A stretch of DNA of 64,000 nt from Escherichia phage rV5_ev147. Numbering within the stretch: the stretch's first letter is position 1; each line of letters starts with the position of its first letter. Positions 29,050-33,991 of the stretch are shown here, in pieces. The translations under genes were made by a program, and so were the position numbers. The stretch lies in sequence record LR597647. The stretch is one strand, 5' to 3'. The notes under the pieces were generated by a model. The model had not been told where the DNA came from. It worked only from the letters and a program-made list of their open reading frames with translations, and did no database searches.

Positions 29050-29355
29050 ATGGCTAAATCTAAAGTTGAACTGTTCACCTCTCTTCCTTCTGACACTGCA
29101 GAACGTGATCGCCTTCGCAAAACAATTGAAGAACTGGTGGAACTCCAGCTTCAGATTAAAGATTTGAAAGATGCCATCAAGGATATCATTCTTGTTGAGA
29201 AGCAGGATCATCTGTATTCTCCTAAATTCATCAAATCTTTGGTGGCTACAGAGTTTGATATCCGCTACGAAGCTGAAAAACGTCGCGCTAAGATTGAAGA
29301 AGAGGTTGAGCACATGTCTGAGGCAGACATTCTGTTCAAACGCTCTGTAGAATAA
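29050..29355 (+). CDS. hypothetical coiled-coil protein
   Basis: RBS aaggagac. Confidence 0.45.
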   Translation: MAKSKVELFTSLPSDTAERDRLRKTIEELVELQLQIKDLKDAIKDIILVEKQDHLYSPKFIKSLVATEFDIRYEAEKRRAKIEEEVEHMSEADILFKRSVE

Positions 29356-30952: not shown

Positions 30953-32423
30953 CACACAATTAGCTGCCCGGCTAAAGTGCTGGAAGCACCTATAACACAT
31001 CTTTCAACTAAATTTCCTACCACCACAATCACTTACCTCCCACACATGACTGTTTGCTTGTTTAGTGAGCAGTCATGCCTTGACATTCTTGCCTATCCTG
31101 ATAAAATTAAGTTCTTCTCTTTTCTTTTACCGAGTAATTCGGGTTTTCTGTTCTCTTCGGTTTGAAGGGGTATAGAGATACACCTGAGTGAACAGGGTGA
31201 ACAACCGAACCATTAGCTATGGCATTAGCATGGCGAAGCGGACGGGTGACGAAAGAGGGGCCGGAGGACACCAGTCACTGCCATATGATATATGGGTGAT
31301 AACCTGAAGAGTCTGAATAAGTGTTTAAGTACCAGTCAGAGGAAAAGGTGAATGGTAGCCGAAGGGGGGGAGGGGGGTTTCTTGTATCTTTAATTTGTAT
31401 ATTATGTATACACTTGTAAACCAATCTAATCTGAATCTGTTTACCACACAAAGCGGATAGAGACAAATATTGCCTATTAAACTTGAATTATTTATAGAAA
31501 ATACCACAACACCCCTTAAGTCTTTGATTTTACACACAAATCCTACAGATATTCAACCTCCATATTTAACATACTTGTAACATATTCCATACTCTACCTG
31601 TCTGATCAATTTCCCCAACTACATTCTCATATTTTCCCTGTCTGTACTACCCCTGCCCCGCCGGGAGTCCCGTCATATCTGGCTTTCCAGCAAATATCAC
31701 ACCCACAAATATCATTGCCTGAAGAGGGTTTCATCCCATAATACCTGCCTTACCTGAAGAGCGCTTCATACACCACGTAAATTTTTTAATTGACCTCCCC
31801 CTGCCCCGCCGGAGAGGTTGGCTTTTCCCACACAGACCTGAAGAGTCAGCCAGAAATATCTGAATAGGCCCAATTCTACCACGATTTTGACCTGACCTAC
31901 AGGGAGGCCCGAAGGGTCTAGCTTTCAGCTAGAGTCCTTGCAGGACCTACAGGAGCGCTGCCAGGCGGACGGAATGGGAATACTTCTCATTCTTATAACA
32001 ATTCTCAAATATCGAGGCAGTGAGAGAAATTAATAGGCCAGGCCGTTCACACAGTGGCACAACATTTGCAACCTATTTTGTGTGGATGAATGAGAATACC
32101 TATCATTGTGAGAACTGTTATCATTACGGGCAATTTAACATAATACCCATTATGCGCACCACTGGCGATACATACAAGGATTGATAACATGAGTTACAGT
32201 TTACGCATATAACAATCATATTTCTTACTATTTGTGTGGGATATAGTTAGCAGCCAATAGATTAGATATTGACCTGCGGACTTCCAACCGTCTAGACGTC
32301 TAAACGCCCACACAACAAGGATTATACATACATTACTGAATGTAAACAGGACCGCAAAAATGCTACCATACCAGTTTGTAAATTTTTCATGCAGCACTTG
32401 ACAAAGAGGAGGAAAACTTGTCT

Positions 32424-32475
32424 GACATAATGGTGACATAACTGACACGATTGACATAATTGACATGCCTGACTG
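32424..32475. repeat. iteron array: 5-6 direct copies of TGACA(T/C) at 9-11 bp spacing
   Basis: copies at 32424, 32435, 32444, 32452, 32461, 32470. Confidence 0.5.
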
Positions 32476-32520
32476 TTCACGCTCTCATTATTCCCGCCCT
32501 TACTATTCACGCCCTTTACT

Positions 32521-32610
32521 GCTTACATTCTTGATAGTCTACATGCTTAATGGTTTACATGACTAATAGTTTACATAGCTAACTGTTTACGCATAAACTG
32601 TTTACACAGA
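32521..32610. repeat. iteron array: about 6 copies of (G)TTTAC(A/G) at 15-16 bp spacing
   Basis: copies near 32523, 32540, 32555, 32570, 32586, 32601. Confidence 0.5.
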
Positions 32611-32618
32611 TATGATAA

Positions 32619-32910
32619 GCCATGCCATTCGTTTGCATGATAACAATAACGATCAACAACAATAAAGACTGAAATGATAACGTTGTTGATTTGACTGACT
32701 AACAATTAACAGGCTAATAATCTATGACATAATATAAAAGCAGGGCAACTATTAGCAGATCTATAGTTGCCTTGCTTGTTATGTCATGATTAACTAAATA
32801 CAAGGCAACTATGATCTGATTAATAGTTTGCAGACAAACTATCACGGGGGTGATGGTTACTGCTTTTATATTATGTCGCGACTCCGTCGCGCCATGCCAT
32901 TCGTTTGCAT
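32619..32910. repeat. 252-bp palindrome-rich segment flanked by perfect 20-bp direct repeats GCCATGCCATTCGTTTGCAT
   Basis: DR at 32619-32638 and 32891-32910; nested inverted repeats inside. Confidence 0.5.
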
Positions 32911-33571
32911 AGTTGCCTTATTGTTACAGATAAAATAATTGTATTGTTAATTATTTCTTATCTTTCTATTAGTCATCTAATGATTCCAGTTAGTATAGTA
33001 ACGTACAGTAAACATTAGACGACTAAAGATTTCTCTGATTATGATAACTTGCCGTGACAATTTCAGACTGTTTACGAAAAATGTTGACACCTGAGCTGAT
33101 TTATGTTATGCAATTTAAACGAATAATTATTTTATGCAGGTATTGACTATTCTGTTATTCTATGGTCGGAATAAATACTTAGCAGGCTATAGAATGGTGA
33201 GCGTACGTAAATTCTGAGATCTGTCGGCTATAGTTATACTCGATTTTTCACGTAGAACACGCTTTTTGGTTTGTGTAAGTGTATGACTTATAAAGATTTT
33301 TAGTTGTTGACAAGATATTGAAGATGTGCATCAGGTTAAATTTTGTGCAATAGCTGCATTACGTGCAATTTTGGAAGGAAAACGGGTAAAAATAGCACCG
33401 CTACCACACAATGAAAGGTTATGCAATAGTTATTTTACATGTATATTTGTACAGTGTGTGGGATTGATGGCTCGTCAATTATTCCACTTGCCAGGTAGGG
33501 CCGTTTATGGTAGGGAGGAAGAGCAGACAAAAAGAAAGGGACCTAAGCCCCTTGATAATTCAGTTAAAAAA

Positions 33572-33991
33572 TTATAATGATTCGTATATTTCAAAAATCC
33601 GATTTGCCAGGTCGTTACGGTACCGGAATTTTTCATCACGTTTGATCATAAGATCTTTATAGCCGTACTCTTTAAGCACTTCATTAACTTTATGGCGGCA
33701 CACCTTCATATTATCCTGAGCGTCACCAATAAACCTGTTGCTATGGTGCATGGCTTTAATTTCTTCTTCCAGGACCAGGGCAACTATGCGGACCGGATCA
33801 AGCTGATAGGCGGTAACATCCATGCGGCATTGTAAACGGCTTTTTACGTCTGCCACCGGATATACTGCAACCTCTTCCCCGTCAACATTGACAATAATTA
33901 GTTTACCATCGATTTCGAATCCTTTCGCCGCCGGACCGTGACAAAAAGCGTTATCAAAGCTATATGCCGGATTATTAGATTTAATGTTCAT
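33572..33991 (-). CDS. hypothetical protein
   Basis: first gene of minus-strand arm. Confidence 0.45.
   Translation of the reverse strand: MNIKSNNPAYSFDNAFCHGPAAKGFEIDGKLIIVNVDGEEVAVYPVADVKSRLQCRMDVTAYQLDPVRIVALVLEEEIKAMHHSNRFIGDAQDNMKVCRHKVNEVLKEYGYKDLMIKRDEKFRYRNDLANRIFEIYESL

What the first reader, a model, noticed from the sequence alone, without database searches (positions are those of the whole stretch)
32424..32610. Two helically phased iteron arrays (TGACAT x5-6 and GTTTACA x6)
TGACA(T/C) recurs at roughly 10-bp intervals and (G)TTTAC(A/G) at roughly 15-bp intervals in adjacent blocks. Such phasing is what initiator or partition proteins bind, for example plasmid and phage origin iterons.
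Basis: seen in the sequence. Interest (0 to 1): 0.55.

Follow-up and report, generated by a model that had tools for sequence, protein, structure and literature searches.

The report
Repeat arrays beside phage genome end
The short repeats are real, and they begin at the exact base where this rV5-like E. coli phage's 459-bp terminal repeat ends, so they more likely help cut and package the genome than act as plasmid-style origin iterons.

Summary
The window is Escherichia phage rV5_ev156 (Vequintavirus). The arrays exist as described, with corrections. TGACAY occurs five times at spacings of 11, 9, 9 and 9 bp, not about 10. An overlooked 15-bp array follows. Then come six (G)TYTACR units at 15-16 bp. 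They are the densest 5-mer and 6-mer clusters in the 64-kb window.

Their position is the main result. Records with experimentally placed ends (HdK5, YN3) carry an exact 458/459-bp direct terminal repeat (DTR), which maps to window 31964-32422. The first TGACAT is the first base after it. All 18 vequintavirus sequences examined keep ...CTTGTC|TGACAY.

Across 14 phages the DTR has no indels. The arrays vary from 114 to 239 bp, but unit spacing stays at 9-11 or 15-16 bp and core positions are kept. T7, tested here, has the same layout: a 160-bp DTR followed by CCTAAAG repeats at 13 bp.

The arrays lie in a roughly 2-kb gene-free gap. A 2025 transposon screen found no insertions in the matching gap of a relative.

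Best reading: a multi-site protein platform at the concatemer junction, acting in terminase cutting and packaging. An origin function is not excluded. This is a new member of a known, poorly understood kind.

The parts
31964..32422 (.). Direct terminal repeat (DTR) of the virion DNA, present once in this record. Left boundary is ...GCTGCCA|GGCGGACGG; right boundary is ...AAAACTTGTC|.
   Evidence: HdK5 has an exact 459-bp repeat at both record ends, mapping to window 31964-32422. Korf 2019 placed the ends from abrupt read ends and reports 458-bp redundancies. YN3 has an exact 458-bp repeat with the same boundaries, and the Pr121LW record is opened exactly at TTGTC|TGACAT. The DTR has no indels and 90-99% identity in 14 phages.
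32398..32427 (+). Right-hand DTR cut-site region: TTGACAAAGAGGAGGAAAACTTGTC|TGACA. It holds a GACAA...TTGTC inverted repeat and the 9-bp palindrome TGTC-T-GACA. The palindrome straddles the boundary, and its right half is the first array unit.
   Evidence: Read directly from the sequence. The junction is conserved in 18 of 18 vequintavirus sequences. Klebsiella phage KPP-1 has a homologous boundary, CTTGACAAGGAGAGAGAATTGTGT|.
32423..32475 (+). Array 1: TGACAY x5 plus a degenerate TGACTG. Unit is TGACAYAMT(n)(G). Spacing is 11, 9, 9, 9, 9 bp.
   Evidence: Across phages the copy number is 1-6 and the spacing 9-11 bp. Unit logo.
32468..32516 (+).
   Evidence: TRF, repeat family D11 and motif positions.
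32517..32610 (+). Array 3: six units of 15-16 bp, T.AYTGTTYACRY plus 3-4 free bases. Cores are GCTTACA 32521, GTCTACA 32537, GTTTACA 32553, GTTTACA 32569, GTTTACG 32585 and GTTTACA 32600.
   Evidence: A 15-16 bp spacing was seen 63 times across 14 phages.
32613..32640 (+). Conserved block GATAAGCCATGCCATTCGTTTGCATGA, which closes the arrays in all phages. Its core GCCATGCCATTCGTTTGCAT recurs exactly at 32891-32910.
   Evidence: (D6).
32196..32210 (+). Dispersed copy of the array-3 unit (ACAGTTTACGCATAT) inside the DTR. Further copies lie at 32338-32349 (-), 33005-33018 (-) and 33067-33081 (+).
   Evidence: Repeat families D3, I16 and I21 and motif positions.
32654..32713 (+). Second hypervariable stretch of (A/C)AAGYTAACA-type short repeats. 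Its length and sequence differ among phages.
   Evidence: 30-33% identity and 37% gaps in the 14-phage alignment. Sequences shown.
32726..32877 (.). Large nested inverted repeat. The outer 18-nt arms, GACATAATATAAAAGCAG, are 100% complementary, and the inner arms carry GGCAACTAT/ATAGTTGCC. The outer arms carry the TGACATAAT motif of array 1.
   Evidence: Inverted repeats I1, I3, I7 and I18. Folded as single-stranded DNA: -48.9 kcal/mol, z = -8.06. 97-100% identity across 14 phages.

Best explanation
The three same-strand arrays form a roughly 190-bp multi-site protein-binding platform at the concatemer junction of a phage that packages unit-length genomes with a short direct terminal repeat (DTR), as T7 does.

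Shown:
- The arrays begin at the first base after the DTR. The right-hand cut falls between ...CTTGTC and TGACAY, inside a TGTC-T-GACA palindrome whose right half is the first repeat unit.
- Unit number varies among phages, while the junction, unit spacing and core bases are kept.

Inferred:
- An oligomeric DNA-binding protein occupies the repeated cores. The likeliest candidates are the small terminase subunit or an accessory packaging factor.
- This binding positions or activates the terminase nuclease for the cut at the first unit. It could also mark the junction for DTR duplication or for starting the next packaging round.
- The role would resemble that of cosB next to cosN in lambda. By position, the arrays are the counterpart of the T7 SRL repeats.
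For: - The window is a Vequintavirus, 100% identical to rV5_ev156.
- Korf 2019 placed the ends of HdK5 and EdH4 from abrupt read ends and reported 458-bp terminal redundancies.
- The HdK5 and YN3 records carry exact 459/458-bp repeats ending ...AAAACTTGTC, immediately followed by TGACAY. Pr121LW is opened at the same phosphodiester bond.
- The junction is identical in 18 of 18 sequences.
- Related Klebsiella phage KPP-1 has a 514-bp DTR, shown by coverage and PhageTerm and classed as T7-type, in the same convergent gap with homologous boundaries.
- Core spacing across 14 phages falls into discrete classes: 9-11 bp 28 times, 15-16 bp 63 times, and multiples of these.
- Flanking core positions carry information (0.7-1.7 bits) while spacer positions carry almost none (0.05-0.3 bits). 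This argues for selection on a recognition motif rather than homogenisation alone.
- The array motifs also occur as dispersed direct and inverted copies only within this roughly 1-kb region.
- T7, tested here, has a 160-bp DTR followed 14 bp later by about 10 CCTAAAG repeats at a 13-bp period.
- A transposon screen of vequintavirus Bas54 found no insertions in the roughly 2-kb intergenic region between convergent gene blocks. The homologous gap in Bas58 lies between genes 0133 and 0134.
- The arrays have no fold potential (z = +0.22), no Rfam match and no consistent ORF. They therefore most likely act as duplex DNA sites.
Against: - No binding protein has been identified, and the terminase genes are outside the window.
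- KPP-1 shares the DTR boundaries but has no arrays after them. The arrays are therefore not required for the basic cutting chemistry in the subfamily.
- In some vequintaviruses (isim, C15) most TGACAY units have decayed to ..CAY, so constraint on array 1 is loose.
- The function of the T7 SRL repeats, the closest analogue, is itself not established (my own knowledge).
- The packaging direction is unknown, so it is unclear whether the arrays lie on the packaged side of the cut they adjoin.
- One paper infers headful packaging for a vequintavirus from PhageTerm, which conflicts with exact DTRs.
- The transposon result covers the whole 2-kb gap, not the arrays specifically.
Confidence: 0.45

Rival explanations
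1. The arrays are replication-origin iterons. A phage or host initiator binds the repeated cores, melts the nearby AT-rich DNA and loads the T7-like primase-helicase and DNA polymerase. This could be a late rolling-circle origin placed next to the packaging site.
For: - The arrays are same-strand direct repeats with a conserved core and free spacers.
- The lowest-GC stretch of the gap (GC 0.25-0.27, 32900-33050) lies 300-400 bp to the right.
- A highly conserved nested palindrome lies alongside.
- The whole gap takes no transposon insertions.
- In ICP1, whose polymerase is a close homologue of rV5's, the terminus lies in a 1.3-kb ORF-free region and the predicted rolling-circle origin is nearby.
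- The rV5 authors saw a skew change at 104425-105475, which is this region, while looking for the origin. They attributed it to the change in transcription direction.
Against: - No initiator-like protein was found in the ten flanking ORFs by Pfam or PHROGs.
- Units of 9-16 bp at 9/15/16-bp spacing are unlike classical iterons of about 19-22 bp, phased at about 11 or 22 bp.
- An origin gives no reason for the array to start at exactly the first base after the DTR in 18 of 18 phages.
- Copy number varies widely, with the total array region 114-239 bp, and KPP-1 and ICP1 lack such arrays.
- GC skew here tracks gene orientation, so it does not help decide.
Confidence: 0.25
2. The arrays have no sequence-specific function. 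They are slippage- and recombination-prone duplications of the cut-site half-site and neighbouring sequence. They persist near a genome end by concerted evolution, at most serving as a length-tolerant spacer between the cut site and the conserved palindrome.
For: - The arrays are the most variable part of an otherwise 90-100% conserved non-coding region, with 58-84% identity and 9-30% gaps.
- Copy number ranges from 1 to 6 for TGACAY units and from 5 to 14 for all cores.
- Units decay in isim and C15.
- The arrays are absent from KPP-1 despite homologous DTR boundaries.
- Array-1 and array-3 units are related (TAATGGTGACAT versus TAATGGTTTACAT), consistent with duplication from one ancestor.
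Against: - All 18 sequences retain the arrays with the same two periods.
- Within units, core-flanking positions are kept while spacer positions are free. Homogenisation alone would not produce this pattern.
- Extra dispersed and inverted copies of both motifs lie only in this region.
- The gap tolerates no insertions in Bas54.
Confidence: 0.15
3. The arrays are a transcription-related element. They could be a cluster of -35-like hexamers (TTGACA, TTTACA) that binds host RNA polymerase. They could also be operator sites for a phage regulator or a host OmpR/PhoB-type response regulator, controlling or blocking transcription into the genome end.
For: - TTGACA and TTTACA are consensus or near-consensus sigma-70 -35 hexamers.
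- One 10-of-12 promoter-like site (GTGACA-16-CATAAT with an upstream TG) lies at 32433-32460.
- The arrays sit between convergent transcription units whose terminator-like hairpins lie at 31130-31142 (+) and 33536-33553 (-).
- A PHROG 'transcriptional regulator' is encoded at 29050-29355.
- Read on the minus strand, array 1 (ATGTCA at 9-11 bp) resembles tandem Pho-box half-sites, and GTTTACAT resembles OmpR half-sites. This is from memory and was not tested.
Against: - Promoter-like sites are not clearly enriched in the gap: 15 found against 9.8 +/- 3.2 in shuffles.
- Most units have no -10 partner at 16-18 bp.
- The candidate promoter depends on unit spacing, which differs among phages.
- No gene lies downstream on the + strand before the convergent block, and the ORFs over the arrays are inconsistent among phages.
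Confidence: 0.1

Closest known systems
Phage T7 SRL short repeats, just inside the left terminal repetition (Dunn & Studier 1983; checked here on NC_001604)
   Same: Both phages have an exact short DTR (T7 160 bp, here 459 bp). In both, a same-strand array of about 10 or more short units with a conserved core of about 7 bp at a regular period follows immediately. In T7 this is CCTAAAG at 13 bp over nt 175-338, starting 14 bp after the DTR. Here it starts 0 bp after the DTR. In both, the array is much more regular on this side of the junction than on the other.
   Different: There is no sequence similarity. The host phage is a 136-kb myovirus without its own RNA polymerase, so T7's polymerase pause signal right after the DTR has no obvious counterpart. 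There are three arrays with two periods. The first unit forms part of the cut-site palindrome. The function of SRL itself is not established (my own knowledge).
Lambda cosB (R3-I1-R2-R1 sites for the small terminase subunit gpNu1, next to the nicking site cosN)
   Same: Both place repeated protein-binding sites directly beside the terminase cut, at one genome end. This is the functional model proposed here.
   Different: Lambda makes 12-nt cohesive ends, not a DTR. It has three 16-bp R sites in mixed orientation plus an IHF site, rather than 15 or more tandem direct units. Binding has not been shown here. The comparison rests on my own knowledge and was not tested.
Plasmid and phage origin iterons (lambda ori O-protein sites, P1/F/pSC101 Rep iterons)
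   Same: Both are tandem direct repeats with a conserved core, with an AT-rich stretch not far away.
   Different: Classical units are about 17-22 bp, phased at about 11 or 22 bp, and sit beside or within the initiator gene. Here the units are 9-16 bp, no initiator gene was found nearby, and the array is anchored to a genome end.
Herpesvirus 'a' sequence (DR2/DR4 arrays between the pac1 and pac2 cleavage-packaging signals)
   Same: Both have short direct-repeat arrays of variable copy number embedded in the terminal cleavage and packaging region of a genome cut from concatemers.
   Different: The herpesvirus is a eukaryotic virus with unrelated sequence, and its arrays lie inside the terminal repeat rather than just outside it. 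The comparison is from my own knowledge.
Vibrio phage ICP1 ORF-free terminus region
   Same: ICP1's polymerase is a close homologue of rV5's. Its terminus lies in a 1.3-kb ORF-free region, with two cut positions a few hundred bp apart and the late origin predicted nearby. It shares a GAATGAGAAT..ATCATT element with the DTR here.
   Different: ICP1 has no tandem arrays there. It is described as a headful (pac) packager.

Membership tests
Terminus-adjacent short-repeat arrays of DTR phages (T7 SRL type) | The phage packages unit-length DNA with an exact short direct terminal repeat. | tested here: met
   Exact 459/458-bp repeats lie at both ends of the HdK5 and YN3 records, with ends placed from read ends. 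KPP-1 has a 514-bp DTR classed as T7-type. This was not measured on rV5_ev156 itself; it is inferred from 90-99% identity of the DTR with no indels.
Terminus-adjacent short-repeat arrays of DTR phages (T7 SRL type) | The array starts within a few bases of the inner DTR boundary, on the unique-sequence side. | tested here: met
   The first TGACAY is base +1 after the DTR in 18 of 18 sequences. In T7 the array starts at +15.
Terminus-adjacent short-repeat arrays of DTR phages (T7 SRL type) | Many same-strand copies of a short conserved core occur at a regular period. | tested here: met
   There are 5-6 units at 9-11 bp and about 9 units at 15-16 bp. T7 has about 10 units at 13 bp.
Terminus-adjacent short-repeat arrays of DTR phages (T7 SRL type) | Sequence homology to the T7/T3 repeats. 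| tested here: not met
   CCTAAAG versus TGACAY / TGTTYACR. The resemblance is one of layout, not descent.
Small-terminase recognition site (cosB / pac type) | Lies next to the terminase cleavage site. | tested here: met
   The cut falls at the first unit.
Small-terminase recognition site (cosB / pac type) | Specifically bound by the small terminase subunit and required for packaging. | not testable with these tools
   This needs EMSA or footprinting and deletion phenotypes. The only indirect support is that the whole gap takes no transposon insertions in Bas54.
Small-terminase recognition site (cosB / pac type) | Conserved in relatives that share the cut site. | tested here: inconclusive
   Present throughout the genus Vequintavirus. 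Absent from Mydovirus KPP-1, which has homologous DTR boundaries.
Replication-origin iterons | Tandem direct repeats of about 17-22 bp phased with the helix (about 11 or 22 bp). | tested here: not met
   The repeats are direct, but the units are 9-16 bp at 9, 15 and 16 bp.
Replication-origin iterons | A cognate initiator gene lies adjacent to or overlapping the repeats. | tested here: not met
   None of the ten flanking ORFs has a Pfam match. PHROGs gives only 'unknown function' and one 'transcriptional regulator'. Only the neighbours were scanned, not the whole genome.
Replication-origin iterons | An adjacent AT-rich unwinding element. | tested here: inconclusive
   The lowest GC (0.25-0.27) is at 32900-33050, 300-400 bp from the arrays and separated from them by the conserved palindrome.
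Replication-origin iterons | Replication starts there. | not testable with these tools
   This needs marker-frequency sequencing or an origin-plasmid assay.
Sigma-70 promoter cluster | -35 and -10 hexamers at 16-18 bp, enriched over chance. | tested here: not met
   15 sites were found in 2.6 kb against 9.8 +/- 3.2 in shuffles. Only one site lies inside the arrays.
Structured RNA or hairpin element | Fold energy below that of shuffled sequence, or a match to a known RNA family. | tested here: not met
   z = +0.22 for 32390-32620. No Rfam match at E <= 1.

The most novel reading that the evidence does not exclude
The arrays are the loading platform for the vequintavirus terminase. A ring or filament of small-terminase subunits binds the TGACAY and TGTTYACR units and directs the nuclease to the TGTC-T-GACA palindrome formed with the first unit. 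That would make this a sequence-defined recognition and cut module for short-DTR packaging in a large myovirus. It would also explain why the roughly 2-kb gene-free gap is essential. The platform may additionally serve as the entry point for late rolling-circle replication.
Probability: 0.3. Interest if true: 0.6.

Novelty: new member of a known kind. Interest (0 to 1): 0.45.

Why it matters
A 2026 review states that how phages generate exact direct terminal repeats from concatemers is less well understood than cos or headful packaging. Vequintaviruses are common therapeutic and biocontrol E. coli phages. A 2025 transposon screen flagged their roughly 2-kb gene-free gap as essential, with no known function.

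This analysis gives that gap an anatomy: the DTR, a palindromic cut site, three repeat arrays, and an almost invariant nested palindrome. It also gives specific, cheap experiments.

There are practical consequences too. Genome records of this genus should be opened at 31964 and include the DTR. Engineering or rebooting these phages should keep the junction and arrays intact.

Tried and rejected
- **Rfam.** A scan of 31000-33800 at E <= 1 found nothing.
- **Single-strand folding.** The arrays show no structure (z = +0.22).
- **Promoter scan.** No clear enrichment.
- **Coding potential.** ORFs overlapping the arrays differ in start, length and presence among 14 phages. The 9-bp repeat creates in-frame ATGs on the minus strand, which explains the 90-aa ORF in this window. 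A coding role was rejected.
- **Neighbouring proteins.** Pfam and PHROGs on ten flanking ORFs, searched for an initiator, ParB-like or other DNA-binding candidate, gave only one generic 'transcriptional regulator'.
- **Satellite mimicry.** I looked for a host element copying the junction, as PLE copies the ICP1 pac site. Among 5,426 complete E. coli genomes there was only a marginal 40-bp match to the DTR interior, beside a filamentous prophage.
- **IMG/VR.** A scan for the DTR-end sequence gave only two more contigs.
- **Distant relatives.** KPP-1 and ICP1 were checked for equivalent arrays; there are none.
- **Literature.** Searches found no description of these arrays or of an rV5-group origin. 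The library does not hold the classic T7/T3 packaging papers, so statements about them are from memory.
- **Not attempted.** DNA curvature prediction, because I had no reliable parameter table. Analysis of the terminase genes, because they lie outside the window.

Full report
**Identity and setting**

Window 31400-33400 is 100% identical to Escherichia phage rV5_ev156 (LR694165.1, 103784-105784). It matches about 120 Vequintavirus records at 90-97% identity. The finding lies in a gene-free gap. Plus-strand genes run into it from the left and minus-strand genes from the right. In the annotated relatives rV5, Murica and navn the same gap of about 2-2.6 kb carries no consistent genes.

The rV5 genome paper called the genome circularly permuted. 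While looking for an origin, it noted a skew change at 104425-105475, which is this region, and attributed it to the change in transcription direction.

**The observation**

TGACA[TC] starts at 32423, 32434, 32443, 32452 and 32461, at spacings of 11, 9, 9 and 9 bp. A degenerate TGACTG follows at 32470. GTTTAC[AG] starts at 32553, 32569, 32585 and 32600, preceded by GCTTACA (32521) and GTCTACA (32537), at spacings of 16, 16, 16, 16 and 15 bp.

In a test that assumes no motif, TGACA x5 is the densest 5-mer cluster in any 45 bp of the 64-kb window. It was reached in 2 of 200 dinucleotide-preserving shuffles. GTTTAC x4 is the densest 6-mer cluster in any 70 bp, reached in 6 of 200 shuffles. The two maxima are adjacent. 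The extended motif A[CT]T[GA]TT[TC]AC[AG] occurs five times in the window, all between 32472 and 33067 on the plus strand.

'Helically phased' is only loosely true. A 9-bp step drifts off one face of the helix, and 16 bp is about 1.5 turns.

**Position**

Several database records begin 416 bases upstream of the query and match it at both ends. Korf et al. 2019 placed genome ends where most reads ended abruptly. They reported 458-bp terminal redundancies for the vequintaviruses EdH4 and HdK5.

The HdK5 record carries an exact 459-bp repeat at both ends, which maps to window 31964-32422. It ends ...AAAACTTGTC and is followed directly by TGACAT. YN3, from a different laboratory, has an exact 458-bp repeat with the same boundaries. 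The Pr121LW record is opened at exactly TTGTC|TGACAT. All 18 vequintavirus sequences I examined keep this junction.

The first repeat unit is therefore the first base after the direct terminal repeat (DTR). The boundary lies within the palindrome TGTC-T-GACA, and GACAA...TTGTC lies just upstream. The left boundary, GCTGCCA|GGCGG, also lies in a short palindrome, GCC-A-GGC.

**Comparison across the genus**

I aligned 14 phages:

| Window segment | Identity to rV5_ev156 | Gaps |
|---|---|---|
| DTR, 31964-32413 | 90-99% | none |
| Arrays, 32414-32623 | 58-84% | up to 30% |
| 32654-32713 | 30-33% | about 37% |
| Nested palindrome, 32744-32923 | 97-100% | none |

The array region measures 114-239 bp, taken from the DTR end to the conserved CATGCCATTCG block. 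Despite this variation, spacing between cores falls into discrete classes: 9-11 bp (28 times), 15-16 bp (63 times), and multiples of these.

Unit logos show conserved positions outside the bases used to pick the units. The 15-16-bp unit is T.AYTGTTYACRY with 3-4 uninformative bases, and the short unit is TGACAYAMT. The two unit types are related: TAATGGTGACAT versus TAATGGTTTACAT. Conserved cores with free spacers argue for selection on a recognition motif, not just repeat homogenisation. Extra direct and inverted copies of both motifs lie only in this roughly 1-kb region, including on the outer arms of the big palindrome.

**What the arrays are not**

- There is no Rfam match and no fold potential (z = +0.22).
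- ORFs over the arrays are inconsistent among phages.
- Promoter-like sites are not clearly enriched.
- The ten flanking ORFs have no Pfam match, and PHROGs gives one generic 'transcriptional regulator'.

**More distant relatives**

Klebsiella phage KPP-1 (Mydovirus, same subfamily) has a 514-bp DTR shown by coverage and PhageTerm, described as T7-type. It lies in the equivalent convergent gap. Its boundaries are recognisably homologous: GCTA|GACGGAC and CTTGACAAGGAGAGAGAATTGTGT|. No arrays follow it. The arrays are therefore specific to the genus and are not part of the minimal cutting signal.

ICP1 has a polymerase closely homologous to rV5's. Its terminus lies in a 1.3-kb ORF-free region, with the late rolling-circle origin predicted nearby. 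It has no arrays either.

**The closest analogue, tested**

T7 (NC_001604) has a 160-bp DTR. Fourteen bases later, about ten CCTAAAG units follow at a 13-bp period, over nt 175-338. The other side of the junction is much less regular. The layout matches the one found here, but the sequences are unrelated. To my knowledge the function of these T7 repeats has never been settled. A 2026 review says DTR packaging is less well understood than cos or headful packaging.

**Functional evidence from others**

[quoted passage not shown] The authors concluded that the region has an important but unknown role. In Bas58 the homologous gap lies between genes 0133 and 0134, so this is very probably the same region.

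**Interpretation**

The best-supported reading is a protein-binding platform at the concatemer junction that helps the terminase find or make the cut at the right-hand DTR boundary, or helps organise DTR duplication or packaging initiation. I give this 0.45.

What is shown: the position, the conservation pattern, the layout shared with T7, and the essentiality of the surrounding gap. What is inferred: the identity of the binding protein and the step it affects.

The main rival is an origin (0.25). It is kept alive by the AT-rich stretch at 32900-33050, the almost invariant palindrome and the ICP1 precedent. It is weakened by the lack of an initiator, the atypical unit sizes and the exact anchoring to the genome end. 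A by-product of repeat instability near an end (0.15) and a transcription-related element (0.10) are less likely.

**Novelty**

The 458-bp DTR of vequintaviruses was already published. Within the searchable literature, the arrays, their exact abutment to the DTR cut site and their conservation pattern were not. Some records only carry automatic 'repeat_region' tags nearby. I class this as a new member of a known but poorly understood kind, of moderate interest.

Noticed in passing
window 32726-32877 (wider block 32744-32923): A large nested inverted repeat with 18-nt outer arms that are 100% complementary and inner GGCAACTAT/ATAGTTGCC arms. As single-stranded DNA it folds at -48.9 kcal/mol, z = -8.06. 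It is 97-100% identical across 14 phages, which makes it more conserved than the rest of the gap. It is a candidate for the real origin, a terminase site or a cruciform.
   Followed up: partly
window 32084-32116 and 31975-31991; L020 (KPP-1) about 2400-2470; L023 (ICP1) about 933-950: A GAATGAGAAT...ATCATT(C) palindromic element lies inside the DTR here. It recurs in the KPP-1 DTR and in the ORF-free terminus region of ICP1 (GAATGAGAATCATTC). It may be a shared cis element across distantly related phages.
   Followed up: no
window 31294, 31718, 31753, 31836; also 31647-31664 and 31795-31812: To the left of the DTR there are four dispersed copies of CCTGAAGAG and two copies of the C-rich CT(A/C)CCCCTGCCCCGCCGG. 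KPP-1 has GACCTGAAGTGTCAGCC at the equivalent place. There is no tandem array on this side, so the junction is asymmetric, as in T7.
   Followed up: partly
window about 31899-31953: rV5_ev156 carries about 55 extra bases just left of the DTR, bounded by a duplicated GACCTACAGG. HdK5 and YN3 lack these bases.
   Followed up: partly
window 32654-32713: A second hypervariable stretch of (A/C)AAGYTAACA-like short repeats, with 30-33% identity and 37% gaps among phages. It sits between the conserved GCCATGCCATTCGTTTGCAT block and the palindrome.
   Followed up: no
window 32619-32638 and 32891-32910: The 20-nt sequence GCCATGCCATTCGTTTGCAT is repeated exactly, 272 bp apart, bracketing the palindrome region.
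   Followed up: no
window 32126-32165; L025 9001-9040 (E. coli UTI89): A 40-bp stretch inside the DTR matches an intergenic site in 35 E. coli genomes at 90% identity (E = 5e-4). UTI89 and NU14 are among them. In UTI89 the site lies beside a filamentous prophage with Zot and pII/X genes. The match is marginal and may be chance.
   Followed up: partly
PLSDB record CP057073.1 (137,565 bp): A record filed as a non-mobilizable E. coli 'plasmid' from cattle faeces matches the region at 95.5% and has the size of a vequintavirus genome. It is probably a phage genome or carrier state, not a plasmid.
   Followed up: no
GenBank MG0656xx records (for example L014, L016): About 19 'UNVERIFIED Campylobacter phage' records are ordinary vequintaviruses, 91-96% identical to E. 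coli phages across this non-coding region. The host label is doubtful.
   Followed up: no
window 32423-32475, minus strand; 32553-32606: Read on the minus strand, array 1 is ATGTCA at 9-11 bp with AT-rich spacers, which resembles tandem Pho-box half-sites (CTGTCAT at 11 bp). GTTTACAT resembles OmpR half-sites. In HdK5 some units (TTTTACACA) fit the relaxed DnaA box. All three resemblances are from memory and were not tested.
   Followed up: no
literature (PMC13211470 versus PMC6563267 and PMC9862379): One 2026 paper infers headful packaging with partial permutation for a vequintavirus from PhageTerm. The rV5 paper called the genome circularly permuted. These claims conflict with the exact 458/459-bp DTRs seen in HdK5 and YN3.
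   Followed up: partly
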